Below are positions 6,708 to 36,581 of a DNA stretch of 43,527 bases, in pieces (positions within the stretch are counted from its first letter, which is position 1; each line of letters starts with the position of its first letter). Source of the DNA: an uncultured Ignavibacteria bacterium (GTDB lineage Bacteria; Zixibacteria; MSB-5A5; SM1-73); NCBI GenBank assembly GCA_964631815.1, contig CAZWAO010000002.1, positions 1 to 43,527 on the forward strand. Reading direction: 5' to 3'. The notes below the pieces were generated by a model. It saw only the letters and a list, made by a program, of their open reading frames with translations, was not told where the DNA came from and ran no database searches. Position numbers and translations under genes: made by a program.

Positions 6708-9659
6708 TTATTTTAGAAGAAGCATCTTATTGGTCTTGGTGAATTCCCCCGCCTCCATCCTGTAAAAGTATACGCCGCTGGCGACATCCTGGCCCCTTTG
6801 GTTTTTTCCATCCCATATCACCCTTTTATCGCCTGCCGTCTGTATCTCATCCACCAGAACCTTTACCTCCTGCCCCAGTATATTGTAGACCGTCAGTCGC
6901 ACGCTTCCGGCACGAGGAAGCGAATACTCTATTACAGTCTCGGCATTGAACGGATTTGGGAAGTTGTGCCCCAGGCGGAATGAAGTTATCACTCCCTCCT
7001 CTCCCTCTTCCACCGAAGAGGGAATCATTCCCAGGTCGCTCAAGGCCTGGTGTAATAGCTGGGTAGCTTGTGCCTCCTGAATGAAGTATAGCGGGAAATC
7101 GAAGAAGATAACCTGCTGGCCAGTTCCTAAGTAGCGGAAGGCGACGGGTTTGCCTTCGGAAGCTGAGGTATCGTAGGTCGAATGGAAGGTGTAGATAACC
7201 TCTCCGGCCATAAGGCTGTCGATGTAACCAACGCCGGGGACTCTTCCTAATAACTCCAGCCCCGGGGCTGCCTGGGCCACTCGCAGGCTGTCGACCTGAA
7301 GGTCCGGGTAACCGGAAATCCGGCTGTGCGCCCCAATGAACTCCTCCGAGCGCTCGTCGAGAGTGCTCCACGGCGGAACCAAAGCAGATTCGACGTGGAG
7401 CCGGTCATAACGGATATCGCCGGCTGAGAAATGCCTGATGGACCAATCGCCGTCATCTCCCTGGGAGAGATTGCGGCGGCCCTCGATGATAACCTTGCCG
7501 CCATAATCCAGATATTTCTTGAGAACCGAGTAAGTCGAATCCGTATCTGCTCCCAGCGACCGGTTTCCTCTGAAGTCCTCGGAGTGAACGATCACCACGC
7601 TGTAACGGCCGAGCTCAGGAAGGCGCAGCTGAGGATACGGGGGACAACTGGGACAACTGTGGTCCACATAGGCTCGCGTGTATTCCTGTAACGCACGCTC
7701 GTAAAAGGCATTTATGCTGTCGCCGTTCACCATGTTGTTGCCTATGTCTATATAGGTTTCGTCCACCACCAACAGGCCCTGATCCAAGGTAACGGCGAAG
7801 CCCCGGGCTTCGCTCGACATCTGGCTTTCGTTTCCGGTGGTATCCACTGCCGTTAAGGTGTAGTAATAATACTCCACGTCGCCTTGGACGGTCGAATCCA
7901 CAAAAGTCGTGTCGCTCCACTCATCCGCCAGAAGCTGGTAACCGGAGCCGGATTGTTCGCTTCTGAAGATTCTGTAGTGGTCGAAATCGGCTTCGCGGTT
8001 GGCGGCCCAGTCGAGTTTGATCTTGTATGTGCCGTATGGGTCAGCTATCAGTTCCGACGGTGCCCGCGGCGCCACTCTGGGTGCTAAGGAGACCTCCGGA
8101 TTGGCGAAGCTTTCGAATCCGGTCTGGTTGACGGCCGACACGGTGAAGAAGTATGTCGTGTTCTCGGTCAAAGCGGTGAGGGTATCGGTGTTACCGGCCA
8201 GTTGGCGGACGCTGTCGTAGTCTCCGCTGGAGGTGCCGAAGTACAGGTTGTAGTGGTCCACATCCTCCACCGGGTTATTATCTAACCAGTTCAAATACAA
8301 GGCGTCACCATCTCCAGCATCCACGGCAGTCAATCCCTCCACTGCCGAAGGGGAATTCCCCAAGGTCAGCACCGTGGCCAGGCACATCTTTGCGACTTCT
8401 CCCAGGTATGGAAAATTCAGGCTGTCGATCAGGTCATAATTCGTGTGCCAGCCGGCCGTGTGGAACTCGCCTTCCGAAGCCGCGACCACATCATAGCCAA
8501 ATTGGTAAAAAGAATTTTGATCGCTTGCGAAGTTCGGACCATCGTACACCGGGCGGAGGGAGGTGTACGTTTCCGCCGCATCCTTCATTGCTTCCACAAA
8601 TGGCATCTCTCCTGGCGGCGCATACAGCAGGACGTCGGGATCAGAATCCACGCTGTGTCCGATCATGTCGGAGTTGATCATCAGCTCCACGTTTGTTCCC
8701 CGATTATGCAGGTATTCCGCGAAGTGGTCGCTTCCTACAAGTCCTTGTTCTTCCTGAGCAAAGGGCACAAACATGACGGTTATGGGCAGCGGATTCTGAG
8801 AGATTATCCGGGCCAGCTCCAACGCGACCACCGTGCCGCTGGCGTTATCGTCGGCCCCGGGAGCAAAAACCATGGGGTTGACTCCGCTTCCGTTGACCAC
8901 GGAATCGTAATGTCCTCCCACGACCATCACCCTGTCCGGCTGAACCGTCCCTTCCACCGTAGCCACCACGTTCCACTGGTGGGAGACCCAGAAGTAGTGA
9001 TGAAGCCACAGGCTGTCGATGCCGAAGCCGGACATTTTCTGGTACAGCCAGTCTCTCGCCGCAATAATGGAATCGGAGTACGAGTACCTGGTGCGGAAGT
9101 CCTGAAGCCTCTGAATCCAGTCATGCAGCGAGTCCGCGGAAACCAGGTCGACTAAATCTCCAATGTCTTCGGAATAGCGCGGCGCGGCTGGGGGCCAGGT
9201 CATGGTTGGTTTGTATTCAAGCGGTATGGCCCGGCGACCAATCGGAACAACCATGTATCCGACCCTGGCCAGACCGGCAGCTTCTTCCTTCGAGCCTTTG
9301 ACGAATTGTCTGGCCTGGTCTTCGAATAAAACCCTACCGTAAGAAACCGGTGCCGGCTTGGCCAAGGTTTTGGGAGCGGAGATAAGGAAATAGTCTTCAG
9401 ACCAGGGCGACTCATCCACGATCCGGTATTTCAGGCCGGCTTGATCCAGCTCGCTCAACCTGTTCTTCTCGAACTCCGCTAATACGTAGCCTTCAAATCT
9501 GTGGTAGGCAATGACACCCAAGGATCGAGCGGCCAAAAAGTCTTTGGATTCCTTCAAATTGAGTTTGATCAGAACCGGATTAGCAACGGACGACGCAGAC
9601 ACGGAAAGCGAAACGGCAAGCGAAATAAGAAGGGCCAAAAGCGCTCTTCTTTGAATCAT
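6708..9659 (-). CDS. secreted M28-family metallopeptidase with FN3 domains, an unassigned ~250-aa module and a T9SS C-terminal sorting domain
   Basis: GGAGG sits 5 nt before ATG 9659; the track's GTG at 9665 is 2 codons upstream. A signal peptide is present. M28 zinc-ligand blocks are VVGGHYDSV, APGADDNASG, FAQEEQGLVGS and NSDMIGH. At least two FN3 repeats follow. The C-terminal T9SS/FlgD-like tail reads NFPNPFNAETVIEYSLP...GVYFYRMEAG...KMLLLK. Confidence 0.85.
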   Translation of the reverse strand: MIQRRALLALLISLAVSLSVSASSVANPVLIKLNLKESKDFLAARSLGVIAYHRFEGYVLAEFEKNRLSELDQAGLKYRIVDESPWSEDYFLISAPKTLAKPAPVSYGRVLFEDQARQFVKGSKEEAAGLARVGYMVVPIGRRAIPLEYKPTMTWPPAAPRYSEDIGDLVDLVSADSLHDWIQRLQDFRTRYSYSDSIIAARDWLYQKMSGFGIDSLWLHHYFWVSHQWNVVATVEGTVQPDRVMVVGGHYDSVVNGSGVNPMVFAPGADDNASGTVVALELARIISQNPLPITVMFVPFAQEEQGLVGSDHFAEYLHNRGTNVELMINSDMIGHSVDSDPDVLLYAPPGEMPFVEAMKDAAETYTSLRPVYDGPNFASDQNSFYQFGYDVVAASEGEFHTAGWHTNYDLIDSLNFPYLGEVAKMCLATVLTLGNSPSAVEGLTAVDAGDGDALYLNWLDNNPVEDVDHYNLYFGTSSGDYDSVRQLAGNTDTLTALTENTTYFFTVSAVNQTGFESFANPEVSLAPRVAPRAPSELIADPYGTYKIKLDWAANREADFDHYRIFRSEQSGSGYQLLADEWSDTTFVDSTVQGDVEYYYYTLTAVDTTGNESQMSSEARGFAVTLDQGLLVVDETYIDIGNNMVNGDSINAFYERALQEYTRAYVDHSCPSCPPYPQLRLPELGRYSVVIVHSEDFRGNRSLGADTDSTYSVLKKYLDYGGKVIIEGRRNLSQGDDGDWSIRHFSAGDIRYDRLHVESALVPPWSTLDERSEEFIGAHSRISGYPDLQVDSLRVAQAAPGLELLGRVPGVGYIDSLMAGEVIYTFHSTYDTSASEGKPVAFRYLGTGQQVIFFDFPLYFIQEAQATQLLHQALSDLGMIPSSVEEGEEGVITSFRLGHNFPNPFNAETVIEYSLPRAGSVRLTVYNILGQEVKVLVDEIQTAGDKRVIWDGKNQRGQDVASGVYFYRMEAGEFTKTNKMLLLK

Positions 9660-9800
9660 GGTCACCTCCAGGTTATACCCTGGCTTTCAACCCTATTTCC
9701 CACCTTAAGCTACGCATAAGCGACGGGGAAAATCGAATCAATCGCAGACCGAACCCATACAGCTTGCCGTGTCTGTGCCCGCAGATGGGTGAAAAAACGA

Positions 9801-9829
9801 TTGAAATCTACATTATGATGTTATATTAT
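9801..9829 (+). promoter_or_regulatory. candidate sigma-70 promoter for the kinase-EBP gene
   Basis: TTGAAA at 9801-9806, a 17-nt spacer, then TATTAT at 9824-9829. It lies 74 nt upstream of ATG 9903. Confidence 0.42.
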
Positions 9830-9902
9830 AGGTGACTCGATCAAGAGACACTTCGCCGCTTTAACTCGGCTCTCTCGGATCGGGCCTCCAATAGGGTGAC
9901 TC

Positions 9903-12900
9903 ATGATTGGCGGTCGTTATCGGATTCTGCAAGAGATCGGTTCCGGCGGAATCGGGAGAGTATTCAAAGCCGTAGACCAGTGGGGGGACAGGACGGTTGC
10001 GCTGAAAACCCTCTCCCTCACCGGGCCGGATCACACCGAGAGATTCAAAAAGGAGTTTCTCCTCCTTCGAGGGCTGCATCATCCTCATATCGTGCCGGTG
10101 TATGATTTCGGCTGGGCTGATGAAGGCCAGCCTTGCTTCAGCATGGAGTTCATAGAGGGGCAGGAATGGGGCACGCTCCTTCAATCGCTTGATTACTCCA
10201 GATTGTGGCCGGTCATCATAGACATCTGCGGCACCCTCGACTTTCTGCACTGCAAGGGAATCATCCACGGGGATATCAAGCCGTCCAACATCCTGGTATC
10301 CTCCGATCCCCAGGGCCAATTGATTCCCACCTTTACCGATTTCGGCTTTGCCGAGCCGGGCAAGCCGGAGGACTCCACTTGGTGGAAGGGCACCCCCTCC
10401 TACCTGGCGCCGGAGATCATTCGGGGTGAAAGATACACTCATCAAGCGGACCTTTACTCCCTGGGCGTTTTGCTGTATGAGAGTATCTTCGGGAAACCAC
10501 CGTTTCAGGAGCAGGAGTTGGGCCGGCTGGCCAGGAGCCACCTGGAAAAAGAGGTGACGATTCCTGCTGAGCCGGCAATTCCTCAAGGACTGGAAGACCT
10601 CATCCTGAAGCTGCTGGAAAAGGACCCCATGGATCGCTGCTATTCAGCATCCGAGGTGCGGGCCAGGCTGGAAGAGATATCGGGGATGAGGCACCCCGAC
10701 TATGACCGTTCGCTTGCCGAAAATTTGATCTCCTCGGCCGACTTTGTGGGCAGGGAAAAAGAGCTGTCCCTGTTGAACCAAGCCTTCCGTCAAGCCCAAG
10801 AGAATGGGAACCCGGTGGTGCTGATCTCCGGTGAGCCGGGAATGGGCAAGACCGGGCTGCTGAAGGAGTTTGTGAGCCGGATCGAATTGGAGCAGGGCCT
10901 GGTCCTTAATCTGCGCCTGTCAGAGAGGAAATCTCTCGAGACACATCGCCGGGAGATAACCCGCTTGCTTGAATATAAAACCCTTACCAAGGTTCTGATT
11001 GTGGAAAACTTGGAGCAAGCGGCCGACTCGCCGGAGGAATTTCTCGGCAGTCTGCTCGGTCAGCCGGAACTCCACAGGTTGCTGCTCTGTCTCACCGTCA
11101 ACAACAGCCTCTCCCGCTCGGACAAAGACGCCAGAGCGACGCAAACCGAAGAGGCACTCAAATCGCTGCTGGGGGACAGACTCGTCCATTTAGAACTGGA
11201 GAGATTAACCGAGCTTGAGGAGAAAGATCTGGTCTGCTCCATGTTCGCCTGGGAGCAGAAACAAGCGAAAATAGTATCCGCAGTTTACCAGAAGGCGCAA
11301 GGGCATCCGATGCTGGTGCGGCAGACACTCCGGCAATTGGCTGAGAGCGGACATTTTGGCAGACGGGAAGATGGCTGCTGGATGCTCGATCCAAAGCAGG
11401 TGGAGCAAGCACAAGCACCGCCAGCTTTGGCCCAGGATATGACTGATCGACTGAGTCGTCTTGGTCCGGATGAGTTGCATCTCCTGGGTTTGGCCTCTGT
11501 ATTGGGCCTGCGATTTCGCTCCCAGACGCTAAGCGATTTGCTGGGAGGAACGTCGGAGGGCTTCCGAAAGCAGTTCCAGGGCATTCTGGCCGAAGGAATT
11601 CTGTTGCCCGGCCCGGATGGCTCCTCAGAGGACGGTTTTTGCTTCAATAGCGGCTTTGTCCGGGATCTCATCTTGTCACAGATGGAGGACCAGGAGGTCA
11701 GGGAGCTTCACTCTATGGTAGCCGGCTACCTGGAAGAAAAACAGTCGGCGGGAGTGGAGGACCATCTGGAGGAGTTAGCCGAGCATTACTACCTGGCCGG
11801 CAGCGCAGAGCCGGCTTTACGATATTCTCTTTTGGCCGCCCGTCGTGCCCGAGACTCGGGCCAAGCCGGACAGGCTGTGATCCATTATCTGCGGGTCCTG
11901 GAACTCTGGGATGAATCGCCTGCGCCTCCGGAGGGGACCAAAAACGAGATTCTGCGCGATTTGGCAAGTCAGTACGAGTGCGACGGGCGTTATCAGGAGA
12001 GCATAGAATATTACCAGAAAAGCCTGGATCTGGCAGCTAACGAAAGTCCGCAGAACACGGACGTCCTGCGGATTCAACAGAAAATCGCCGGTATCTACAG
12101 CAAGATGGGGCAGCATGACAGAGCCACCAAGTTGCTCGATCGAACGCTGCCGCTGGCTGATCCCAAGTTGTTGCCGGTGGAGCATGCATCCCTGCTCATC
12201 GACCTGGCCCGGGAGAGAAGGGTAACCTCAGAATACGACCAGGCCGCGGGATACCTGCAGGAGGCCATCGGGCTGCTCCAGGGATTGGGACCTTCCAAGG
12301 AGATGGGCATCGGCTTGAACTCGCTGGCGGGAGTTTGGTGGGCACTGGGCGATTATGACCGGGCATTGGATAACCTCTCGCGGAGTCTGGACGTATTCGG
12401 CAAACTGGGAGAGACCCGGGAGATGGTCGACTGCTACATCGCCAGAGCGCTCCTTTTGAGGAGCAAGGGACTTCCCGGGGAAGCCCTGCAAGATTCGGAA
12501 GAAGCCGGAGAGCTTTTGAGGAAGCTTTCCGACCCCTATCGAACCTCGGTACTGGAACACAACCTGGGCATAATCTTGACGGACCTCAACCGGTGGGATG
12601 AAGCTCTGGACTGTTTCAAGAGAAACCTTCAGCTGAAGACGCAGTTGCGCGACGTGAAGGGAGTGGCCCTAAGCCATAACAGCATGGGGCACGTCTATCT
12701 CAGAAAGGGCCGGTTTGCGGCAAGCGGCGATCAGTTGTTTTCCGCTCTGAAGATGTTCCAGGAGGCTCGCGACAGAAGCGGCGCTGCCCTGGTGTATTAC
12801 AACCTGGCCGATCTTTTCCGGTGCAAGGAAAACTATCAGATGGCTCGCCACTATCTGGACAGGAGCATGAGGATCGCCCGGCAGATCGGAGAGGAAAGCA

Positions 12901-14927
12901 GGACCGCAGACTGTCTCTTGCTGTCCGGAAAACTACATCTGGATCAGAGCGACTGGCCGAAGGCCGACCAGAGTCTATCTCAAGCAGCCCGTATCCTGAA
13001 AAACGGCAGGAACCTTCCGGCAGAGGCGGAGCTGGCTTTGGCTCAAGCCGAGTTGTGCGTTGGAACCGAAGATCTCCCCGGGGCCGAACAACACCTAAAG
13101 CAAGTTGGGCAGTTTGCGGAGTCCTCCGGCAGCGCCTGGCTGGAAGCGCTCCTATGCCGGGTGTGGGCCGAACTTTACAGGCTCAGCGGCGACGAAAGCG
13201 CCTGCCTGGATCGACTGCTGCACAGCCTGGCCACTTTCAAATCACTGGGAGCCAGGTACGAGCTGGGCAAAACTTATCTGAAGCTGGGCCGGCTCAAGCT
13301 GAAGATGAGGAGGGTGAAAGAGGGGCAGGCTTGCCTGAGGGAGGCGCTGAGCATTCTGGACAAACTGGAAGTGGAGAACAGCAGAAAGGAGGCGAAAGCT
13401 TTGCTTGACCAGACAAAGGAAATGCCCCATTTGGAGAAAGAGAGGATTCTCACCTTCTATCGACTGGCGGATTTGCTGAACAACGTCTGGGATACCGACG
13501 AGCTGCTGAACAAGGCCCTGGACTTGGTCATCGAGCTGTTGGACGCCGAGAGGGGAGCCATAATCCTGTACTCCGAAAAGGACAAGAGCTTCCGGGTTAA
13601 AGTCTCACGGAAACTGGAGCTGGAGACCTCCAAAGACGCCGTGGCCATATCCCGACGGGTGGTGAATGACGTCATCGAAAGCGATTCCCCCCTGATCGTG
13701 GACAATGCCACCAGCAACCCACAGTTCGCCGCCAGCAAGAGCGTAATCGCCTACAACATACTTTCCATATTGTGCGTTCCGCTGCGGACCCAAAATCGGC
13801 TCATCGGCACGGTTTACTTAGATCATCGCAGCCTGCCGGCGGTGTTCTCCTCGGAGGATATCGATTTTCTGAAGGCCTTTGCCAGTCTGATCGCCACGGC
13901 CATAGAAAAAAGCGAGCTGTATGCCAAGGTCCACGAAGAGGTATTCCAGCTCAAAGAGACCTTTCACCGGTACTATGAGTATCCTCATCTGGTGGGAAGG
14001 AGCGCAAAGCTGCAGGAGGTCTTCGGTCTGGTGGAAAAGGTGGCCCCTGCCAAAACCAGCGTCTTGATTCTGGGCGAGCCGGGCACCGGAAAGGAGCTTA
14101 TCGCTCACCTCCTACACGAGAGAAGTCCCAGAAGAGCCGGCCCATTCATACGGGTGAACTGCGCCGCCCTGGCGGAAAGCATGTTGGAGGGCGAGCTGTT
14201 CGGCGTAGAGGATAAGGCGGCCACCGGCGTGGGCTTCAGAAAAGGAAAATTCGAGTTGGCCGACGGAGGCACCATTTTCTTAGACGAAGTCGGAGACATG
14301 AGCCTGTCACTGCAGGCCAAGGTGCTCCGGGTTTTGCAGGAGAAAGAGTTCGAGAGGGTGGGGGGACAGCAATCCATAAAGGTGGATATCCGGATAATCT
14401 CGGCCACCAACCAGGATCTGCAAAAGAAGGTGCAGGATGGCGACTTCAGGTTGGATCTCTTCTATCGCCTGAATACCATTGTGATCACCATTCCTCCACT
14501 CCGCGAGAGAAGGGAGGATATACCCCTGTTGGTACAGCACTTCGTACAGAGGTCTGCTCAGGAGAACAACAAACCAGAGGTGAAGTTGACCAAGAGAATC
14601 ATGGCGGCCTTGCAGGCTCATAGATGGAGTGAGAGCAACGTCAGGGAGCTGAAAAATCTCATTGAAAGGGCTACGTTGCTAAGCGAGAATGGAGAATTTC
14701 CTTCGGACCTGCTCAGTAGCTTAAGCGTGATACGGGAGTCGGCTGATATGGACGGGCCGGGCAAACTCCAAAGCCTGCTGGATTGGGTCGAAAAGCACAG
14801 AATAGTCCAAGCCCTGCAGAGAAACGGGTGGAACCAGGTAAAGGCTGCCGAGGAATTGGGCTTGAATGAGACCACCCTGAGAAGGCGAATGAAGAAACAC
14901 AAAATCAAGAAACCTCTTCGATTGTAG
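9903..14927 (+). CDS. 1674-aa multidomain regulator: Hanks Ser/Thr kinase - STAND/AAA P-loop NTPase - TPR array - GAF - sigma-54 interaction AAA+ domain - Fis-type HTH
   Basis: Kinase motifs: GSGGIGRVF, VALKTL, HGDIKPSNIL (non-RD), TDFGFA, YLAPE. The STAND Walker A is GEPGMGKTG (nt 10830-10856), preceded by FVGREKEL. A long TPR-like helical repeat region follows, then a GAF domain (AERGAIILYS...LCVPL...LIGTVYLDHR). The sigma-54 activator domain has GEPGTGKE (14073-14096), GGTIFLDEVGDM, VDIRIISATN, FRLDLFYRLN, PPLRERREDIP and NVRELKN. The C-terminal HTH_8 reads NQVKAAEELGLNETTLRRRMKKH. Confidence 0.9.
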   Translation: MIGGRYRILQEIGSGGIGRVFKAVDQWGDRTVALKTLSLTGPDHTERFKKEFLLLRGLHHPHIVPVYDFGWADEGQPCFSMEFIEGQEWGTLLQSLDYSRLWPVIIDICGTLDFLHCKGIIHGDIKPSNILVSSDPQGQLIPTFTDFGFAEPGKPEDSTWWKGTPSYLAPEIIRGERYTHQADLYSLGVLLYESIFGKPPFQEQELGRLARSHLEKEVTIPAEPAIPQGLEDLILKLLEKDPMDRCYSASEVRARLEEISGMRHPDYDRSLAENLISSADFVGREKELSLLNQAFRQAQENGNPVVLISGEPGMGKTGLLKEFVSRIELEQGLVLNLRLSERKSLETHRREITRLLEYKTLTKVLIVENLEQAADSPEEFLGSLLGQPELHRLLLCLTVNNSLSRSDKDARATQTEEALKSLLGDRLVHLELERLTELEEKDLVCSMFAWEQKQAKIVSAVYQKAQGHPMLVRQTLRQLAESGHFGRREDGCWMLDPKQVEQAQAPPALAQDMTDRLSRLGPDELHLLGLASVLGLRFRSQTLSDLLGGTSEGFRKQFQGILAEGILLPGPDGSSEDGFCFNSGFVRDLILSQMEDQEVRELHSMVAGYLEEKQSAGVEDHLEELAEHYYLAGSAEPALRYSLLAARRARDSGQAGQAVIHYLRVLELWDESPAPPEGTKNEILRDLASQYECDGRYQESIEYYQKSLDLAANESPQNTDVLRIQQKIAGIYSKMGQHDRATKLLDRTLPLADPKLLPVEHASLLIDLARERRVTSEYDQAAGYLQEAIGLLQGLGPSKEMGIGLNSLAGVWWALGDYDRALDNLSRSLDVFGKLGETREMVDCYIARALLLRSKGLPGEALQDSEEAGELLRKLSDPYRTSVLEHNLGIILTDLNRWDEALDCFKRNLQLKTQLRDVKGVALSHNSMGHVYLRKGRFAASGDQLFSALKMFQEARDRSGAALVYYNLADLFRCKENYQMARHYLDRSMRIARQIGEESRTADCLLLSGKLHLDQSDWPKADQSLSQAARILKNGRNLPAEAELALAQAELCVGTEDLPGAEQHLKQVGQFAESSGSAWLEALLCRVWAELYRLSGDESACLDRLLHSLATFKSLGARYELGKTYLKLGRLKLKMRRVKEGQACLREALSILDKLEVENSRKEAKALLDQTKEMPHLEKERILTFYRLADLLNNVWDTDELLNKALDLVIELLDAERGAIILYSEKDKSFRVKVSRKLELETSKDAVAISRRVVNDVIESDSPLIVDNATSNPQFAASKSVIAYNILSILCVPLRTQNRLIGTVYLDHRSLPAVFSSEDIDFLKAFASLIATAIEKSELYAKVHEEVFQLKETFHRYYEYPHLVGRSAKLQEVFGLVEKVAPAKTSVLILGEPGTGKELIAHLLHERSPRRAGPFIRVNCAALAESMLEGELFGVEDKAATGVGFRKGKFELADGGTIFLDEVGDMSLSLQAKVLRVLQEKEFERVGGQQSIKVDIRIISATNQDLQKKVQDGDFRLDLFYRLNTIVITIPPLRERREDIPLLVQHFVQRSAQENNKPEVKLTKRIMAALQAHRWSESNVRELKNLIERATLLSENGEFPSDLLSSLSVIRESADMDGPGKLQSLLDWVEKHRIVQALQRNGWNQVKAAEELGLNETTLRRRMKKHKIKKPLRL

Positions 14928-14943
14928 TCGTCATAACTGACGA
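14928..14943. promoter_or_regulatory. enhancer-like site 1: perfect inverted repeat TCGTCA-TAAC-TGACGA
   Basis: It begins on the base after the TAG stop of the kinase-EBP gene. The arms are 6 bp with a 4-nt spacer. Confidence 0.5.
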
Positions 14944-15013
14944 GCTATACCTTTAATATATTGATTATAAATAATTTAGCGACACAAACAAACAAAGGGG
15001 CGACAAAAGAGAA

Positions 15014-15029
15014 TCGGCATAACTGACGA
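15014..15029. promoter_or_regulatory. enhancer-like site 2: TCGGCATAACTGACGA (15/16 identical to site 1)
   Basis: Read directly from the sequence. The centre lies 86 bp from the centre of site 1. Confidence 0.5.
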
Positions 15030-15079
15030 TGGAGTTAACTCTATAATTCTACGTGAGTTATAAGTTGCAATGTCAGATC

Positions 15080-15095
15080 TCGTCAGTTTTGATCC
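15080..15095. promoter_or_regulatory. enhancer-like site 3 (inverted orientation, 12/16 match; TCGTCAGTT = reverse complement of AACTGACGA)
   Basis: Read directly from the sequence. The centre lies about 100 nt upstream of the -24/-12 element. Confidence 0.4.
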
Positions 15096-15182
15096 CCTCT
15101 TCTTTGCCTTCCTTCCCATCAGTACACTTTACCGCAAAGCTAAGCGTTTGTAAACCATAGCGTAACGCGGCCTACTGCGTTC

Positions 15183-15199
15183 CGGCATTGGGTTTGCAA
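15183..15199 (+). promoter_or_regulatory. sigma-54 (-24/-12) promoter CGGCATTGGGTTTGCAA
   Basis: GG at 15184-15185 and GC at 15196-15197 are separated by exactly 10 nt. The sequence matches the consensus TGGCACG-N4-TTGCW at GGCA and TTGCA. It lies about 50 nt upstream of the small ORF start. Confidence 0.55.
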
Positions 15200-15246
15200 T
15201 ACTGTGCAGTCGCAGAGAAAGCAAACCCCTAAACGCGGAGGTCGTG

Positions 15247-15465
15247 ATGCTTTCCAAATTCAATTCACACAGTGTCTCCATTTTGACCATAGCAGTTCTT
15301 CTGCTGTTGGTCGTCGGCTTCTCAGCCAGTGTAGTCTTGGCGGACGGCCAAGGTGGCCAGTGGCCCCTCGAACCCCCACCTGCGACCACCGGTGGCGATG
15401 ACGGAGGAAGCGAGGGAATCCAGACGCTGGTGACGGTCATGACACTGATGGAACTGATTCTTTAG
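15247..15465 (+). CDS. small secreted/membrane-anchored peptide (72 aa) of unknown function
   Basis: GGAGG at 15237-15241 sits 5 nt before ATG 15247. The N-terminal signal-like segment is ILTIAVLLLLVVGFSASVVLA-DG. The mature part is Gly/Pro/Asp-rich and ends in a hydrophobic tail (IQTLVTVMTLMELIL). Its stop abuts the next gene. Confidence 0.55.
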   Translation: MLSKFNSHSVSILTIAVLLLLVVGFSASVVLADGQGGQWPLEPPPATTGGDDGGSEGIQTLVTVMTLMELIL

Positions 15466-15483
15466 TTGCAGCTGAGGGAACGT

Positions 15484-16233
15484 ATGCCACGCATAGTTAG
15501 CGAGACCAAGGAGACTTACGGGGAGCTCAGCAAGGCGGTTCAATCTCCCTTCAATCTGATTCTGGAGGGGGAAAGCGAGGTGGGAAAGGAACACTTCGCT
15601 CGCCTGATCCATCAGGAGAGAAACTGGGGGGGGCGTTTCGTGGTGTACGACTGCGAGCAGACGGGGCAAGAGCAGTCAGACATAGCTGGAAGGCTAACCT
15701 CGGAGGCCTTCCTGCAGAGGCTCAAGCAATCCCACAAGAAGGACACCTTCTTTGTGAGGAGGATCGATCTGCTTAAAGGAATCCTGCATGCACAACTCTC
15801 TGATTTCTTTGAGCAGCTGGCCGAGAGCGGGCGATTCAGCAGAAAAGAACTCCTTAGCCTGGGCATCATCGGATCGGTTCAGCCCGAGAGGAACAGGTTT
15901 TCCTTGGAGAGCGTCCAGTTGAACAGACTGCTGGACATTCTCTTCTGTCTGAGGATTAGAATCCTGCCTCTCAGGGAGCGGAAGGCGGAGATCCCCAGGT
16001 TGGTGGAGCGGTTCGTCCGTTTATTCAATCGCGAACATAAAAAAGAAGTGGAGGGGGTTTCAGCGGAGGCGCTGCAGATCCTGATCCGACACGATTGGCC
16101 CAATAACGTGTGCCAGTTGAGGACCGAGATCGAACGCGCCATAACCTTAACCCAAGATCATCATGCAATAACGCCGGATGCTCTGTCGGACGACTTAGTC
16201 GGATCCGCATCCAGAACGCGTTCGCTTGACTGA
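15484..16233 (+). CDS. stand-alone, degenerate sigma-54-activator-type AAA+ domain protein (no receiver, no GAFTGA, no HTH)
   Basis: GAGG at 15474-15477 precedes ATG 15484; an alternative TTG lies at 15466. EBP blocks that are retained: GESEVGKE, ARLIHQ, RILPLRERKAEIPRLVERFV and HDWPNNVCQLRTEIERA. Walker B hhhhDE is replaced by FFVRR, and the GAFTGA region is absent. Confidence 0.75.
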   Translation: MPRIVSETKETYGELSKAVQSPFNLILEGESEVGKEHFARLIHQERNWGGRFVVYDCEQTGQEQSDIAGRLTSEAFLQRLKQSHKKDTFFVRRIDLLKGILHAQLSDFFEQLAESGRFSRKELLSLGIIGSVQPERNRFSLESVQLNRLLDILFCLRIRILPLRERKAEIPRLVERFVRLFNREHKKEVEGVSAEALQILIRHDWPNNVCQLRTEIERAITLTQDHHAITPDALSDDLVGSASRTRSLD

Positions 16234-16235
16234 AA

Positions 16236-16850
16236 ATGGCAAAGCAAAACCGGTTGTCTTTCATCGTGGGCCTTCTCGAGCGCAACGGAACCATGACCGC
16301 GTCCGATCTGGCCGATAAATGCGGAGTCTCCAAAACCACCATCCAGAGTGACATCCGGGTCCTTTCGGATGCCCGGCTGGCGGTGCGTGCCGATGGAGGT
16401 TACAAACTGCACCATAAGGAGACCCGGCTCGGTCTGCATCTGACGGCGGAAGAGATGTTGAGTCTGTATCTGGGGCTCAACTCCCATCCGGTTCAGTCCA
16501 TCTCTTGTTTCCGCGAGGCAGCCAAACGCGCGCTCTCCAAAATCGAAGCGCACGTGTCGGAAGATGTCAACGGCGACTACGAGGTAGCCAAAAGACACCT
16601 GGCGATTCAGCCGGGGAAAAACCGTCCGCATGAAGGCGCCGCTCTCATATTCGAGCTCATGCGGCAAGCCATCTGGCCCAGGCAAAAGGTGGAACTGCAC
16701 TACGTTTCACCGTCCGGCTCCGAGCGCGCAAAGCTCGTGCCTCAGGGTTTGATCTATAAAAAGGACGGTTGGCATTTGGTGGGGTTGGTGCGCAAAAGCA
16801 AGAGATACTTTCGGCTGGACTTTATCAAAAGCGTGAGCCTCTGCAAGTAA
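16236..16850 (+). CDS. HTH (DeoR/HTH_11-type) - WYL domain transcriptional regulator
   Basis: The ATG lies 2 nt after the preceding TGA. The N-terminal wHTH is GTMTASDLADKCGVSKTTIQSDIRVL. The C-terminal WYL signature is KVELHYVSPSG...LIYKKDGWHLVGL...RYFRLDFIKSV. At 204 aa it has no C-terminal extension domain. Confidence 0.8.
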   Translation: MAKQNRLSFIVGLLERNGTMTASDLADKCGVSKTTIQSDIRVLSDARLAVRADGGYKLHHKETRLGLHLTAEEMLSLYLGLNSHPVQSISCFREAAKRALSKIEAHVSEDVNGDYEVAKRHLAIQPGKNRPHEGAALIFELMRQAIWPRQKVELHYVSPSGSERAKLVPQGLIYKKDGWHLVGLVRKSKRYFRLDFIKSVSLCK

Positions 16851-17323
16851 CGGCCGAGCCACAAGTAAGAGTGGACTGCACAGCTTACGCTAAGACGCTG
16901 CTCATGGATCTGTCCGTGTTGACGGCAAGGAGTATCCTGCTGCCGCCAGCAAGACGCATTCATGTGCCCACAACTGTCTAAGCCCGCCCTCGTTGCCCCT
17001 CGCCTCGGGGGCAGTAATTACATGTTTTGCGTTTTGTCCTGCCAAGCGAGGGAGAATTCGATTGAAGGTCCGCTCTACATGTCGATTGGTAAGTGGATGT
17101 AAGCCCGGGTGGAGATACTCTTCCCCCATTCGTCTGAAGCAAAACCGAGGTGATCCCGAGACACGGCACATTTGTGATAAGCCTCTCGGATACCCACACC
17201 GCCCATTCAATGCGGCAAGCAAATTGTCGCAGACCTGACAGTTTAGCTGGTTATGGAGGACGATCTTTACTTTGCGGGAGGGAGCCGACCCAAGGATATG
17301 GGCACAGGCTTAAGCGATTTCCA

Positions 17324-18259
17324 CTAAAAGCGGAACGTCAAAGAAATGGCGTGGGAGTCGCCCAGGTCATCCACCGGAATAAAGCAGTAGTCCAGACAAT
17401 AGGTATGGGTTTTGGCGAAGATCAGGCCCATCCCCCAGCTCAGTTTCGAGTTGGAGTTGAACTCGGAACCGCCGCTATATCCCATTCGAATGGCGATCAT
17501 ATTTCCATAAACGAATTCGGCGCCGGCGCGCAGGCTGTTTCCGTTGTCGGATGAAGCATAGAAATCAGCAACGGCGTTTATAGCGCCCCGGCCCAGAGTA
17601 TCATTCAAAGCCAGGCCCAACTTGATCACGCTGGGCAGCTCGAAAGATTCCGAGATGAACTTGACGTCATGTCCCAGGTTTTGCACGGCCCCGCCCAGGC
17701 GTAGCTTGCTCCAGGGCGTTTTGTACAACCAGCCCAGGTCAAAAGCCACAGTGTGGGCCGTGTAATCCTCGATGGTCTCGCTAAGATATTTGATGCTCGC
17801 CCCCAGAAAAAGGTTGGGGCCCGCTTTAGCACCTAGACCCAGAGCAAGGTTTATGTCACTGCAACCAAACTCCGAGGTGGGTTCCCCCAGTTGGTCTCTT
17901 CCCTCCAGCCGATCCATGTGCAGGTAGTTTAAGTCTCCTGCCAGAACCCCGACTCCCGGTAAAGGTCGTGCGAAGGCTGCGGATTCATAGGAGACATCTG
18001 ATAGCAGGGATTGATGCATGAAGGTCAGCTCCCAACCCTGGATGCCAGCCAGTCCTGCCGGATTCCAATGGATGGCCGTCACGTCGTCCGCCAAACCGGA
18101 AAAAGCCCCTCCCAGAGCCAGAGCACGGGCGCCCAAGCCCAGTTTGAGAACCTGAGCAGCGGAGGTGCCCACGTCGTCGCTGGAAGCCCAACATCCGGCA
18201 ACATGAAAACCACTCAGCAGTAGGAGCACTACAATTGCAATAAGACCCGTGTTCTTCAT
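17324..18259 (-). CDS. PorV/PorQ-family outer-membrane beta-barrel (T9SS-associated)
   Basis: A signal peptide is present. The family-typical N-terminal block is GTSAAQVLKLGLGARALALGGAFSGLADDVTAIHWNPAGLA. The alternating beta-strand pattern ends in an aromatic residue (LTFRF). The gene starts 13 nt after the stop of the S8 protease gene. Confidence 0.75.
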   Translation of the reverse strand: MKNTGLIAIVVLLLLSGFHVAGCWASSDDVGTSAAQVLKLGLGARALALGGAFSGLADDVTAIHWNPAGLAGIQGWELTFMHQSLLSDVSYESAAFARPLPGVGVLAGDLNYLHMDRLEGRDQLGEPTSEFGCSDINLALGLGAKAGPNLFLGASIKYLSETIEDYTAHTVAFDLGWLYKTPWSKLRLGGAVQNLGHDVKFISESFELPSVIKLGLALNDTLGRGAINAVADFYASSDNGNSLRAGAEFVYGNMIAIRMGYSGGSEFNSNSKLSWGMGLIFAKTHTYCLDYCFIPVDDLGDSHAISLTFRF

Positions 18260-25386: not shown

Positions 25387-25402
25387 TGCAAACATCGTTC
25401 CA
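25387..25402 (-). promoter_or_regulatory. sigma-54 (-24/-12) promoter TGGAACGATGTTTGCA for the S8 protease / PorV operon
   Basis: The minus strand reads TTGGAACGATGTTTGCATCA. It matches TGGCACG-N4-TTGCW at every defined position except one (C to A). The GG-N10-GC spacing is exact. It lies 47-62 nt upstream of the GTG start at 25340. Confidence 0.55.
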
Positions 25403-26080
25403 AAGACTCTAAACGCCGGGGCCGATCCCCAATCCGTTGACTGCGAATCGGATGGGATCCACCTCAGATCACCCGCTGCCTGCGAGAAACGCAGAATTTG
25501 ACGACACCCACGCGGTCAAAGTCAGCCTCCCAGACATAATACGATCTTAATTAATGAGTTACTGATTCGCAGTGAACTCCGAATAGTATTGGGTATCGGT
25601 AATTCGCAGCATCAGGTGCGTGAATCTCCCCTGCTCAAGCCCGGTACATCATGCATTTGGATTTTGTGGGCGCCATACCACAACCGACCCCGGCGAATGA
25701 TCTGCGGCTTCTTGGTATTCGCCACGTGCGGAAAAGGACAAGGGAGCCCGGATTATTACGACCAGAGGCGGTAGATAAAGGTCGTTTCCGTACCGTTGGA
25801 TTTTACCCAGGCTCCCTCTTCAGATCATCTTTCGGCTCTTCAAGCGCACACAACGCCCTTTTCCTCCATGGCCTTCGGGAACAAAAGGGAATCGCAGCAA
25901 GGCCTTGTTGTGTGCAACTCGATTAGTATTATAATGTAGTCAAACGACTGGAAAGAGTCAAGAGGAAAAAGTGCCTGCATATAGGGCAGGAGCAGTACCC
26001 ATACCCGGCGAGACACTAAGGTATTGTCAGGATCACCCTATTTATGTGCATTTCTTGAACACCGGGCATTACGGGGCTCT

Positions 26081-31239: not shown

Positions 31240-31374
31240 TGATCCTTGCTCCTTTCTACGCGACAGATCTTCTGCCGGGACGCCGAGCCAGAGCTGCAAG
31301 AGACGATTGGCTGGGTTGATGCTGTTTTTCCGGCGGACCTGCGTTCTCTTCTCCGTCGGAAGACTATTTCAATT

Positions 31375-35852: not shown

Positions 35853-36581
35853 CTAACGTCCCACTGCCAGCCTGTCGATGAGAAACTGCGGCAGCCCCCG
35901 CTTTTTCATCTTCTCCTGAGTCTTCTTAAAATCGTAATCCAGCCTCTTCAGCGTGACCGTTTTTTTGTCTGCATCGTAGATCATAAAGCACGCCTTGTTG
36001 GACCCGTCCCGCGGCTGTCCCACCGATCCGATGTTCACAATGTACCTGAAATCCTTGGCGATCTCGCTCTGGTTATCCTCATGCAAGAAGCAGTGCCGGC
36101 CGTTGAACTTTTTTATGATGGCGGGAAAGTGAGAGTGCCCGATTATACACATCTGTTTGCCGAAGAAGCCGAAGTTCTCCTCGGCATCGTCCAGATCGAA
36201 GATGTAGTTCCATTGGTTCGGCTCCTTGGGAGTCGAATGTACCAGATGAGCTTGATCGAATTCGTGTTCCATCGAGAAGCCGGAGAGGATCTTCAGACTC
36301 TTCTCGGTCAGGACGCTCCTGGTCCATTCCATGGCCTGCTGGGCGTATTCGTTGAACAAGGTGGTCTCGATCAGCCCCAGAGCGGCGTAATCATGGTTGC
36401 CCATCAGCTTGACGTCGGTCAAACCGTCGATGAGCGAGACGCACTCGTTGGGATCCGGCCCATAGCCTACCGCATCTCCCAAGAAGAACATCCGGTCCAG
36501 CTTCTCTTTGCGAAAATCCTGGACCACCGCCTCCAGAGCTTCCAGATTGGAATGCACGTCTGAGAAAAATCCATATCTCAT
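35853..36581 (-). CDS. calcineurin-like metallophosphoesterase (probable partner phosphatase)
   Basis: Motifs present are SDVHSN, LGDAVGYGPDP, GNHD and GHSH. The start overlaps the FHA gene stop by 1 nt (TAATG). Confidence 0.78.
   Translation of the reverse strand: MRYGFFSDVHSNLEALEAVVQDFRKEKLDRMFFLGDAVGYGPDPNECVSLIDGLTDVKLMGNHDYAALGLIETTLFNEYAQQAMEWTRSVLTEKSLKILSGFSMEHEFDQAHLVHSTPKEPNQWNYIFDLDDAEENFGFFGKQMCIIGHSHFPAIIKKFNGRHCFLHEDNQSEIAKDFRYIVNIGSVGQPRDGSNKACFMIYDADKKTVTLKRLDYDFKKTQEKMKKRGLPQFLIDRLAVGR

What the first reader, a model, noticed from the sequence alone, without database searches (positions are those of the whole stretch)
9903..16850. Kinase-STAND-TPR-GAF-sigma54 activator wired to an adjacent sigma-54 operon (secreted peptide / dead AAA+ paralogue / WYL regulator): candidate undescribed signalling or conflict module
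Four consecutive same-strand genes look like one functional unit.
- The 1674-aa protein combines a eukaryote-like kinase, a STAND NTPase with TPR sensor repeats, a GAF domain and a full bacterial enhancer-binding protein (EBP) output. The kinase, NTPase and TPR part is the architecture of MalT/PknK-type regulators and of NLR-like immune sensors.
- Its stop codon is followed directly by three copies of a 16-bp near-palindrome and a -24/-12 promoter.
- That promoter drives three tightly packed genes with gaps of 18 nt and 2 nt: a 72-aa peptide with a signal sequence, a stand-alone sigma-54-type AAA+ domain that has lost Walker B and GAFTGA, and a short HTH-WYL protein.

WYL regulators are recurrently attached to defence and stress islands. 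A dead AAA+ paralogue could poison or scaffold the EBP hexamer. I know of no described system with this gene set.
Basis: partly seen in the sequence, partly recalled or inferred. Interest (0 to 1): 0.85.

Follow-up and report, generated by a model that had tools for sequence, protein, structure and literature searches.

The report
Giant sensor-activator with sigma-54 operon
A giant sensor protein of uncultured Zixibacteria sits next to its own sigma-54 target operon (an exported peptide, a catalytically dead copy of its ATPase motor, and a WYL regulator); this four-gene set is conserved and undescribed, but nothing shows it is an immune system.

Summary

**What is there**
- The 1674-aa Pkinase/STAND/TPR/GAF/sigma-54 AAA+/HTH_8 protein is followed by TCGTCA-N4-TGACGA palindromes, a -24/-12 element and three packed genes.
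- The order giant, peptide, dead AAA+ ("pEBP"), HTH-WYL recurs in all 21 related loci examined. These are Zixibacteria and other FCB-group MAGs, with giant identity from 87% down to 35%.
- The promoter lies at a fixed 41-60 nt from the peptide start. The palindrome is about 165-fold enriched in that spacer.

**New points**
- The giant is not a "full" EBP. Its GAFTGA loop is [KR]xATGV (KAATGV here) in every module-linked orthologue. Same-architecture homologues without a pEBP keep GAFTGA.
- pEBP is a small, constrained family: P-loop and lid kept, Walker B DE replaced by RR, L1 deleted.
- The giant has its own conserved sigma-70-type promoter.

**Reading**
- This is a lineage-specific one-component sigma-54 circuit. 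Its induced dead paralogue probably modulates the activator ring, as FleT does for FleQ.
- The defence/conflict reading is not supported: flanks are variable and mostly housekeeping, no known effector is present, and PADLOC finds no system.
- Peptide function and rpoN presence remain untested.

Verdict: new variant of a known kind.

The parts
9801..9829 (+). Conserved sigma-70-type promoter of the giant gene (TTGAAA-17 nt-TATTAT, preceded by an A-tract)
   Evidence: 10 of 12 consensus match. The block AAAAAACGATTGAAAT...GTTATATTAT recurs about 100 nt upstream of the giant ATG in the loci examined: TAATATAA is shared by 11 of 13 and near-identical versions are visible in the other two.
9903..14927 (+). 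Giant one-component regulator, 1674 aa. Domains: non-RD Ser/Thr kinase (aa 6-247), STAND NTPase AAA_16 (281-392 and beyond), TPR/MalT-like sensor (about 590-1150), GAF (1197-1335), sigma-54 AAA+ (1363-1604), Fis-type HTH_8 (1629-1666)
   Evidence: Pfam. Kinase K, D, N, DFG and APE are intact, with HGD in place of HRD. GAF, AAA+ and HTH are the most conserved parts and STAND/TPR the least. 58 orthologue clusters at 35% identity or more.
14214..14231 (+). Non-canonical L1 loop KAATGV in place of GAFTGA
   Evidence: Translation. [KR]xATGV occurs in every module-linked orthologue, whereas distant same-architecture homologues have G[AS]F[TS]GA.
14928..14943 (.). Enhancer-like palindrome 1, TCGTCATAACTGACGA, abutting the giant's stop codon
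   Evidence: A site at -12 to +9 relative to the giant's stop is present in 17 of 19 loci.
15014..15029 (.). Enhancer-like palindrome 2, TCGGCATAACTGACGA
15079..15094 (.). Degenerate palindrome 3 (TCGTCAGTTTTGATCC; good left half-site only)
   Evidence: Inverted-repeat arms I1 and I2. Equivalent sites at +132 to +155 in other loci.
15183..15198 (+). -24/-12 (sigma-54-type) promoter CGGCATTGGGTTTGCA, 48 nt upstream of the peptide ATG
   Evidence: Conserved position and GG/GC dinucleotides in 17 of 19 loci.
15247..15465 (+). 72-aa pre-peptide: Sec-type signal (predicted cleavage VLA|DG), GGQWP-PPP motif, acidic and Gly-rich linker, hydrophobic C-terminus ...LMELIL
   Evidence: The same architecture is present in 18 loci, plus L034 and L035. 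Against L007 there are 17 synonymous and 11 non-synonymous codon changes. A GGAGG Shine-Dalgarno sequence is present. No family match.
15484..16233 (+). pEBP: stand-alone degenerate sigma-54-type AAA+ domain of 249 aa, with no DNA-binding domain. P-loop GESEVGK is kept. Walker B DE is replaced by RR (nt 15757-15762). L1/GAFTGA is deleted. The lid (PLRER, WPxNV) is kept.
   Evidence: AF2 model pLDDT 85, with top Foldseek matches to ZraR, NtrC1, LuxO, DmpR, FleQ and VpsR. The family is small and consists of stand-alone proteins.
16236..16850 (+). Short wHTH-WYL regulator of 204 aa, without a WCX domain, probably translationally coupled to pEBP (2-nt gap)
   Evidence: Pfam HTH_11 plus WYL. The nearest structures to the AF2 model are DriD, CapW, BrxR and PafBC, but the model is of low confidence (pLDDT 66). 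13 orthologue clusters, all of 202-206 aa.

Best explanation
This is a lineage-specific, vertically inherited sigma-54 signalling circuit of Zixibacteria and related FCB-group bacteria.

**Shown**
- The four genes, the palindromes and the -24/-12 element form one conserved unit.
- The giant has a separate conserved sigma-70-type promoter.

**Inferred mechanism**
1. The giant is made constitutively.
2. It binds through its Fis-type HTH to two or three TCGTCA-N4-TGACGA sites, which start at its own stop codon.
3. A cue is read by the STAND-TPR arm and/or the GAF domain, possibly with kinase autophosphorylation. This drives oligomerisation of the AAA+ domain.
4. Sigma-54 RNA polymerase then opens the promoter at 15183-15198 and transcribes peptide, pEBP and WYL.
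5. The peptide is exported by Sec and cleaved after VLA. This leaves a product of about 40 aa with a hydrophobic C-terminus, which is the envelope or extracellular output.
6. pEBP can probably bind nucleotide, but it cannot hydrolyse it or touch sigma-54. It joins or caps the giant's AAA+ assembly, either damping it (negative feedback) or retargeting it, as FleT does for FleQ.
7. The WYL protein is a second-tier transcription factor.

**My confidence by step**
- Adjacent operon is the giant's sigma-54 target: about 0.8.
- pEBP acts on the giant's ring: about 0.4.
- Exported peptide as primary output: about 0.5.
For: - Strict synteny in 21 loci across 35-87% giant identity.
- Promoter at a fixed distance, and the palindrome about 165-fold enriched in the spacer.
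- The three downstream proteins co-diverge with the giant.
- pEBP has an EBP AAA+ fold, with invariant P-loop and lid but RR at Walker B and no L1.
- There is a clean split. Giants with the [KR]xATGV loop always have a pEBP. Giants with GAFTGA in L029, L030 and L036 have none.
- A distant GAFTGA-type giant (L030) is likewise followed by a -24/-12 element, a small ORF and a radical SAM gene. Control of an adjacent small-peptide operon may therefore not be peculiar to this module (one locus).
- Precedents: FleT lacks a DNA-binding domain, is expressed through FleQ and RpoN, and then forms hetero-oligomers with FleQ (PMC11999139). Inactive L1 subunits mix into PspF hexamers and lower their output (PMC3467059).
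- A canonical EBP (GAFTDA) on a Zixibacteria contig and a second conserved -24/-12 element upstream of the S8 peptidase gene suggest that sigma-54 is in use in these organisms.
Against: - The giant lacks the conserved Phe of GAFTGA. That Phe contacts sigma-54 region I in PspF, and most GAFTGA mutants are inactive. EBPs without GAFTGA are known to work with sigma-70.
- rpoN was not seen; it could not be searched for in the parent genome.
- There are no expression data.
- No test of pEBP-giant contact was possible.
- The tight coupling of pEBP to the WYL gene fits a pEBP-WYL complex just as well.
- In L015 and L035 the -12 GC is not intact, and L016 lacks the -24 GG. L028 and L034 lack the TCGTCA-type palindrome.
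- The signal peptide is inferred from hydrophobicity and an AxA-like site only.
Confidence: 0.6

Rival explanations
1. pEBP and the HTH-WYL protein work together as a split regulator, with no action on the giant's ring. pEBP would be a nucleotide- or ligand-binding AAA+ module, and the WYL protein would supply DNA and ligand binding. The pair would resemble RtcR or TyrR in logic and act on other, probably sigma-70, promoters.
For: - A 2-nt gap here and overlaps of 14-40 nt in L003, L028 and L031 suggest translational coupling.
- A WYL-family gene follows pEBP in every locus, as a full HTH-WYL-WCX protein in L035.
- pEBP has no DNA-binding domain.
- EBP-type AAA+ domains without GAFTGA act at sigma-70 promoters.
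- VpsR is among the closest structures.
Against: - In the L015-L017 clade the WYL half is truncated or degenerate while pEBP is intact.
- This reading does not explain why the giant's own L1 loop changed only in lineages that have a pEBP.
Confidence: 0.2
2. A peptide-pheromone (quorum-sensing-like) loop. The exported peptide, or a processed C-terminal fragment, is re-sensed by the giant's TPR arm. This gives autoinduction, as in RRNPP and Rgg-SHP systems, with pEBP acting as the brake.
For: - A TPR receptor gene lies next to a small secreted-peptide gene that it activates.
- The peptide C-terminus is conserved (...LQLIL).
- L030 shows a related giant next to a small ORF plus a radical SAM gene.
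- NCBIfam lists a kinase-STAND fusion tied to TOMM peptide clusters; the match was far below cutoff.
Against: - No processing protease, exporter or importer is conserved in the module. An OPT transporter gene occurs in L001 and in L002/L009, which are the same contig of a second assembly and carry the same genes, but in no other lineage.
- RRNPP-type systems are, to my knowledge, not established in diderm bacteria.
- The TPR region is long and MalT-like rather than RRNPP-like.
Confidence: 0.12
3. An NLR-like defence (abortive-infection) module. The STAND-TPR arm detects an invader protein, and the transcriptional output is a membrane-disrupting peptide. The WYL protein acts as the usual defence-island regulator.
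For: - STAND plus TPR plus a non-RD kinase. PADLOC kinase models (mad6, PD-T4-6) match the kinase domain.
- The WYL fold is closest to CapW and BrxR.
- Some loci lie near CBASS, a type IIG restriction-modification system, a HEPN/MNT pair or integrases.
Against: - No system-level PADLOC match.
- Most flanks are housekeeping genes or T9SS proteases: the window and L032 (M28 and S8 peptidases), L031 (permease, C25), L033 (AMP-binding), L035 (hyp genes).
- Module proteins co-diverge in an orthologue-like way.
- The TPR region is only moderately variable.
- The peptide has a cleavable-looking signal and no holin-like charged tail.
Confidence: 0.08
4. The giant does not use sigma-54. With its altered L1 loop it would act at a sigma-70 promoter, and the -24/-12 match would be incidental.
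For: - Loss of GAFTGA correlates with sigma-70 use in NtrC of Rhodobacter and Caulobacter and in VpsR.
- The single-window promoter match has 2 mismatches and is not significant alone.
Against: - GG-N10-GC is kept at a constant 41-60 nt from the start codon in 17 of 19 loci, in spacers that are otherwise diverged.
- The giant keeps Walker A, Walker B, sensor and R-finger motifs, and the Thr-Gly of L1.
- No conserved -35/-10 pair was seen in that spacer.
Confidence: 0.05

Closest known systems
FleQ/FleT of Cereibacter (Rhodobacter) sphaeroides
   Same: A master EBP activates, through sigma-54, the gene for a second AAA+ protein that lacks a DNA-binding domain. That protein then forms hetero-oligomers with the master EBP and changes its output (PMC11999139).
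   Different: - From my own knowledge, not tested here, FleT is a competent EBP-type ATPase.
- pEBP has RR in place of Walker B DE and no L1 loop, and both Arg-finger columns are non-Arg in two alignments.
- The master EBP here is a 1674-aa kinase-STAND-TPR-GAF fusion with an altered L1 loop.
GAF-AAA+-HTH enhancer-binding proteins (NifA, NorR, FhlA)
   Same: The C-terminal 480 aa match NifA, NorR and FhlA models end to end: GAF, Sigma54_activat, lid and HTH_8. Palindromic sites lie upstream of a -24/-12 promoter.
   Different: - All scores are below the equivalog cutoffs.
- GAFTGA is replaced by [KR]xATGV.
- There is an N-terminal kinase-STAND-TPR extension of 1150 aa.
MalT/PknK/AfsR-type STAND (LAL) regulators
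   Same: A P-loop STAND NTPase followed by a MalT-like TPR sensor (PF17874 match). PknK also carries an N-terminal Ser/Thr kinase (my own knowledge).
   Different: The output is a sigma-54 AAA+ motor plus a Fis-type HTH, not a LuxR-type HTH acting with sigma-70.
WYL transcription factors DriD, CapW, BrxR, PafBC
   Same: wHTH, linker and WYL beta-barrel. These are the top Foldseek matches, and the WYL domain aligns locally to the DriD C-domain (rmsd 3.2 over 84 columns, 25% identity).
   Different: - The protein is about 204 aa with no WCX dimerisation domain.
- Sequence similarity is marginal (E = 0.005 to PafBC).
- It is encoded downstream of a dead AAA+ gene, not beside a defence or DNA-damage regulon.
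- The model confidence is low (pLDDT 66).
Protein anti-activators of EBPs (PspA-PspF, NifL-NifA, HrpV-HrpS, FleN-FleQ)
   Same: A partner protein, encoded with or near the EBP, controls AAA+ ring activity (PspF/PspA and NifL/NifA are named; the remainder is my own knowledge).
   Different: None of those partners is itself a degenerate EBP AAA+ domain.
Same-architecture giants in other phyla (for example L030, L036, L029)
   Same: Pkinase-AAA_16-TPR-GAF-Sigma54_activat-HTH_8 proteins of about 1600-1800 aa. L030 also has a -24/-12 element and a small ORF directly downstream.
   Different: They keep canonical GAFTGA and have no pEBP or WYL gene. Their downstream genes are a radical SAM enzyme plus a glycosyltransferase, a T9SS cargo protein, or a TIR protein on the opposite strand.

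Membership tests
Bacterial enhancer-binding protein (sigma-54 activator): giant protein | AAA+ domain of the Sigma54_activat family with Walker A, Walker B, sensor and Arg-finger motifs | tested here: met
   PF00158 at 216 bits over positions 1-167 of 168. GEPGTGKE, FLDEV, SATN and FRLDLFYRL are present and conserved.
Bacterial enhancer-binding protein (sigma-54 activator): giant protein | GAFTGA motif in loop L1 that contacts sigma-54 region I | tested here: not met
   KAATGV at aa 1438-1443. [KR]xATGV occurs in all module-linked orthologues. Only the Ala-x-Thr-Gly core is kept and the Phe is lost.
Bacterial enhancer-binding protein (sigma-54 activator): giant protein | C-terminal HTH with cognate upstream activator sites and a -24/-12 promoter at the target | tested here: met
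   HTH_8. Palindromes and GG-N10-GC are conserved across loci. Binding itself was not tested.
Bacterial enhancer-binding protein (sigma-54 activator): giant protein | rpoN present in the genome; transcription depends on sigma-54 | not testable with these tools
   No rpoN was found in the window or in the 600 kb of fetched loci. The evidence is indirect only.
Bacterial enhancer-binding protein: pEBP (15484-16233) | Catalytic Walker B (hhhhDE) and GAFTGA loop | tested here: not met
   FFVRRIDLL, with RR invariant in 34 sequences. There is a five-residue deletion where L1 lies. Distant members have RR, KD or KN.
Bacterial enhancer-binding protein: pEBP (15484-16233) | EBP-type AAA+ fold with P-loop and lid | tested here: met
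   - Profile against PDB: E = 1e-25 to CapR/DmpR.
- Foldseek probability 1.0 to ZraR, NtrC1 and LuxO.
- G29, G34 and K35 are invariant; PLRER and WPxNV are kept.
Bacterial enhancer-binding protein: pEBP (15484-16233) | Trans-acting arginine fingers | tested here: inconclusive
   MAFFT and HMMER alignments both place non-Arg residues (Q/L and L/S) at the two finger columns. However, a conserved R/K lies two residues away, in a region that aligns poorly.
STAND NTPase regulator (MalT/PknK type) | P-loop NTPase (AAA_16/NACHT-like) followed by a repeat sensor arm | tested here: met
   AAA_16 at 70 bits and TPR_MalT at 53 bits, above cutoff. Walker A is GxxGxGK, but the following Thr varies (T, A, K or R) among orthologues.
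STAND NTPase regulator (MalT/PknK type) | LuxR-type HTH output | tested here: not met
   The output is Sigma54_activat plus HTH_8.
WYL-domain transcription factor (PafBC/DriD/CapW/BrxR type) | N-terminal wHTH plus WYL beta-barrel | tested here: met
   HTH_11 (33.5 bits) and WYL (45 bits), both above cutoff. Foldseek top matches are DriD, CapW, BrxR and PafBC.
WYL-domain transcription factor (PafBC/DriD/CapW/BrxR type) | C-terminal WCX extension domain | tested here: not met
   The protein ends at aa 204, directly after the WYL barrel. WCX is present only in the L028 and L035 variants.
Known anti-phage defence system (PADLOC-DB) | System-level set of marker proteins; location in defence islands | tested here: not met
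   Only domain-level matches were found: kinase to mad6 and PD-T4-6, AAA+ to RtcR, WYL to the CRISPR-associated WYL model. Flanks are mostly not defence genes.

The most novel reading that the evidence does not exclude
The L1-variant giant and the L1-less, hydrolysis-dead pEBP may form an obligate asymmetric hetero-ring. This would be a new kind of sigma-54 activator assembly.

The induced pseudo-subunit would act as a stator and specificity switch. It would move the giant from its own operon to a second promoter class, for example the conserved -24/-12 promoter of the 2355-aa T9SS S8 peptidase at 25387-25402. The whole assembly would be gated by an NLR-like STAND-TPR sensor.

The only evidence that bears on this is the perfect co-occurrence of the altered L1 loop with pEBP, and the FleQ/FleT precedent.
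Probability: 0.12. Interest if true: 0.85.

Novelty: new variant of a known kind. Interest (0 to 1): 0.58.

Why it matters
Sigma-54 activators are textbook homo-hexameric AAA+ motors whose GAFTGA loop is treated as indispensable. Here a whole clade of activators has replaced that loop. Each of its members is paired with a conserved, catalytically dead copy of the motor domain that the activator itself appears to induce.

If the two interact, this would be a natural case of a pseudo-subunit tuning an EBP ring. That has so far been explored mainly with engineered mixed PspF hexamers.

The module also joins three signalling logics in one protein: a eukaryote-like kinase, a STAND/NLR-like switch and an enhancer-dependent motor. 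It offers compact, clearly defined parts for testing how STAND oligomerisation could drive AAA+ ring assembly: two or three palindromes, one promoter and three small genes.

It is also one of the few specific regulatory circuits that can be read out of Zixibacteria, a phylum without cultured members.

Tried and rejected
- **PADLOC and NCBIfam scans** of all four proteins and of the convergent ORF gave domain-level matches only, with no system or equivalog.
- **Rfam scan of 9500-17500** found nothing near threshold.
- **Terminator scan** found no convincing terminator between the giant and the operon or after the WYL gene, and no more sites than in shuffled sequence.
- **Convergent 164-194-aa ORF** downstream of the WYL gene in L001, L003, L005, L011 and L018 was considered as a fifth member. 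I rejected it because it is absent from the window, L007, L008, L012-L016 and L032, and it has no family match.
- **Defence-island hypothesis.** Defence genes or an integrase lie within 10 kb in four lineages only (L001, L003, L005, L034). The other flanks hold housekeeping genes.
- **Lipoprotein reading of the peptide.** A lipobox-like Cys is present in only a few orthologues, so I rejected it.
- **PEP-CTERM or GlyGly-CTERM sorting signal.** The hydrophobic tail lacks the terminal basic cluster. I judged this by eye from the sequences and rejected it.
- **Further giant-regulated sites in the window.** Only 2 additional palindrome matches with up to 2 mismatches were found, both at chance level.
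- **Search for rpoN** by the RpoN-box motif in all fetched DNA found none.
- **WYL protein homologue search** returned only close orthologues, because of the word-index limit. The WYL AF2 model was of low confidence.
- **Literature searches** for Zixibacteria plus sigma-54 or rpoN, for Pkinase plus Sigma54_activat, and for WYL plus sigma54 found no description of the module.

Full report

Yes. The window has four consecutive + strand ORFs at 9903-14927 (1674 aa), 15247-15465 (72 aa), 15484-16233 (249 aa) and 16236-16850 (204 aa). The gaps are 18 nt and 2 nt.

Pfam places these domains in the giant protein:
- Pkinase (aa 6-247)
- AAA_16 (281-392)
- TPR_12 and TPR_MalT (about 590-1150)
- GAF (1197-1335)
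- Sigma54_activat (1363-1528, 216 bits)
- AAA_lid_14
- HTH_8 (1629-1666)

The 249-aa protein keeps only the first 60 positions of Sigma54_activat (26 bits) and the lid. The 204-aa protein is HTH_11 plus WYL. The peptide has no match.

The 319-nt spacer holds three elements:
- TCGTCATAACTGACGA directly after the stop codon
- TCGGCATAACTGACGA 86 nt further on, followed by a degenerate third copy
- CGGCATTGGGTTTGCA at 15183-15198

Taken alone, the promoter match is not significant: 29 two-mismatch matches in the window against 18 expected.

**2. Comparative evidence**

The 249-aa protein, here called pEBP, has 59 homologue clusters. All are about 250 aa and 49-90% identical.

I recovered gene neighbourhoods for representatives spanning this range, and for 12 species-level genomes. 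The records are labelled Candidatus Zixiibacteriota or "uncultured Ignavibacteria", both in the FCB group.

Every locus has the same order: giant, small ORF, pEBP, HTH-WYL. More diverged versions keep the order:
- L028 (giant 36% identical)
- L034 (pEBP about 30% identical)
- L035 (giant 35% identical)

These variants carry either an extra or a full-length HTH-WYL-WCX gene.

Identities of the three proteins (giant / pEBP / WYL) fall together from locus to locus:

| Locus | Giant | pEBP | WYL |
|---|---|---|---|
| L007 | 80% | 88% | 83% |
| L013 | 64% | 71% | 69% |
| L001 | 55% | 56% | 46% |
| L015 | 40% | 38% | 36% |

This is the pattern expected for a unit inherited vertically.

In 19 tabulated loci a GG-N10-GC element lies 41-60 nt upstream of the peptide start, and GG and GC are intact in 17. 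The palindrome TCGTCA-N4-TGACGA (up to 2 mismatches) occurs 33 times in 6.7 kb of spacer against 10 times in 339 kb elsewhere. One copy nearly always overlaps the giant's stop codon.

This is strong phylogenetic footprinting for an enhancer plus a sigma-54 promoter.

**3.

(a) *The giant is not a canonical EBP.* Its L1 loop reads ELFGVEDKAATGV (nt 14193-14231), so GAFTGA is replaced by KAATGV.
- All orthologues at 35% identity or more (P0061-P0118) have [KR]xATGV.
- More distant proteins of the same architecture (P0121-P0180) have G[AS]F[TS]GA.
- Where context is known, variant-loop giants always have a pEBP downstream (21 loci).
- Three canonical-loop giants (L029, L030, L036) do not.
- Another EBP on a Zixibacteria contig has GAFTDA, so the change is specific to this clade.
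- In PspF, the Phe and Thr of GAFTGA contact sigma-54 region I, and most GAFTGA mutants are inactive (PMC3467059; PMC7175178).

(b) *pEBP is a constrained family, not a decaying gene.*
- P-loop G29, G34 and K35 are invariant, as are the lid motifs PLRER and WPxNV.
- R92 and R93 replace Walker B Asp-Glu in all 34 aligned members. The L1 insertion is missing.
- A profile search of 1.84 billion representatives found only 18 clusters at E of 1e-30 or better. The short stand-alone members show hhhRR(h)D, or KD/KN, at the Walker B position.
- Its AF2 model (pLDDT 85) matches the ZraR, NtrC1, LuxO, DmpR, FleQ and VpsR AAA+ domains.

(c) *The giant has its own conserved sigma-70-type promoter.* It reads A-tract, TTGAAA, 17 nt, TATTAT at 9801-9829, and it recurs in all 13 loci checked.

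(d) *The peptide family is real.*
- Basic N-region, an 18-20-residue hydrophobic core, and an A-x-A-like site before a conserved DGGGQWP / PP motif.
- An acidic, Gly-rich linker, then a hydrophobic C-terminus of 13-15 residues ending ...LQLIL.
- Against the closest relative there are 17 synonymous and 11 non-synonymous codon changes.

(e) *The kinase looks active.* It is non-RD (HGD), but the catalytic Lys, Asp, Asn, DFG and APE are intact. GAF, AAA+ and HTH are the most conserved parts, and STAND and TPR the least.

**4. How it most likely works**

What is shown is a conserved cis-trans unit. The mechanism below is inferred.
1. The giant is made from its sigma-70 promoter. It sits on the palindromes through HTH_8.
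2. An unknown cue acts on the STAND-TPR switch and/or the GAF domain, and the AAA+ motor assembles.
3. Sigma-54 RNA polymerase initiates near 15209-15212.
4. The operon then yields three products: an exported peptide of about 40 aa; pEBP; and the WYL factor.

pEBP can probably hold nucleotide but cannot hydrolyse it. It has no sigma-54 loop, and it lacks aligned Arg fingers.

The closest precedent is FleT. It is an EBP without a DNA-binding domain, its expression depends on FleQ and RpoN, and it then hetero-oligomerises with FleQ to change promoter class (PMC11999139). Engineered mixed PspF hexamers show that inactive L1 subunits enter the ring and lower its output.

I therefore favour pEBP as a feedback or retargeting subunit of the giant. 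The link between the giant's altered loop and the presence of pEBP is the main argument for a direct functional relation.

The main rival is a pEBP-WYL complex. The gene coupling supports it. The degenerate WYL half in the L015-L017 clade weakens it.

**5. Signalling or conflict?**

I found no support for a defence role.
- PADLOC matches only single domains.
- Flanks vary widely. In the window and L032 they are M28 and S8 T9SS peptidases. Elsewhere they are a permease and a C25 peptidase (L031), an AMP-binding enzyme (L033) and hyp genes (L035).
- Defence genes or an integrase lie within 10 kb in four lineages only.
- No nuclease, TIR, pore-forming or other known effector is part of the unit.

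A pheromone-like loop cannot be excluded, but it lacks a conserved transporter or protease.

A related giant in L030 is followed by a -24/-12 element, a 67-aa ORF and a radical SAM gene. This one case suggests that an adjacent small-peptide operon is not peculiar to this module.

**6. Comparison with known systems, and novelty**

The parts belong to known families: EBP, STAND/MalT-PknK, GAF and WYL. The giant's architecture is common in several phyla.

What I could not find described is the following combination:
- a clade-specific replacement of GAFTGA;
- an always-linked, induced, catalytically dead AAA+ paralogue;
- a short WCX-less WYL factor and a conserved exported peptide.

I rate it a new variant of a known kind (sigma-54 EBP circuits with partner proteins), not a new category.

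**7. Limits**
- rpoN could not be searched for in the parent genome.
- No expression or interaction data exist.
- The signal peptide and its cleavage site are inferred by eye.
- The WYL model is of low confidence.
- The palindrome is absent in L028 and L034. The -12 GC is not intact in L015 and L035, and L016 lacks the -24 GG.
- The genome scan relied on two peptide patterns, so the true spread of the module is probably wider than the 12 species found.

Noticed in passing
window 25387-25402 (- strand) and about 25480-25505: The 2355-aa T9SS S8 peptidase gene (18273-25340, - strand) has a -24/-12-like element, TGGAACGATGTTTGCA, about 47 nt upstream of its start. The element is conserved in L032 (TGGAATGATCTTTGCA) within an otherwise diverged spacer. 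A conserved block, TGTCGTCAAATTCTGCGTTTCTCGCAG, about 80-105 nt upstream of that element contains a TCGTCA half-site. It may be a second sigma-54 target, perhaps of the same regulator.
   Followed up: partly
window 9801-9829: A near-consensus sigma-70-type promoter (A-tract, TTGAAA-17-TATTAT) lies about 75-100 nt upstream of the giant gene. It is conserved in 13 loci. Zixibacteria therefore seem to use classical -35/-10 promoters rather than the Bacteroidota type.
   Followed up: yes
L030 10863-12928: In a 5.9-Mb genome, a distant giant homologue with canonical GAFTGA is followed by TGGCATGCCAATTGCT, a 67-aa ORF, a 493-aa radical SAM protein and a glycosyltransferase. This looks like a RiPP-type cluster under a kinase-STAND-EBP.
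   Followed up: partly
L029 11571-12563; L036 10390-12681: Other canonical-loop giants have different neighbours. One lies beside a TIR-domain protein on the opposite strand (Acidobacteria). Another is followed 185 nt downstream by a T9SS cargo protein.
   Followed up: no
L016/L033 about 9100-9700; L015 10752-11117: In the L015-L017 clade the gene after pEBP encodes only the HTH half (132 aa). The WYL-like sequence continues in another frame with in-frame stops. This is either pseudogenisation or assembly error.
   Followed up: partly
P0205, P0206 (the L028 pEBP), P0211: Diverged pEBP family members end in Cys-rich tails (…ACCSYYS, …CCTFCS) that are absent from the window's protein.
   Followed up: no
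L001 11342-11836 (-), L005 11379-11963 (-), and L003, L011, L018: A conserved basic ORF of 164-194 aa with no family match lies convergent to, and slightly overlapping, the WYL gene in a subset of lineages. It is absent from the window.
   Followed up: yes
window 33214-35712 (-) and 36581-37273 (-): The same window encodes a CHASE2-Pkinase membrane sensor and, nearby, a protein with two FHA domains. This points to further Ser/Thr-phosphorylation signalling in this organism.
   Followed up: no
window 6708-9665 (-), 18273-25340 (-), 29041-31299 (-): Several very large secreted proteins surround the module: an M28 peptidase and an S8 peptidase, both with Por_Secre_tail, and an LRR/fn3 protein. 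These indicate a T9SS-bearing, protein-degrading lifestyle.
   Followed up: no
giant aa about 305-312 across orthologues: The residue after the STAND Walker A Lys is not conserved (T, A, K or R). In some lineages the NTPase may therefore bind nucleotide without normal Mg coordination.
   Followed up: no
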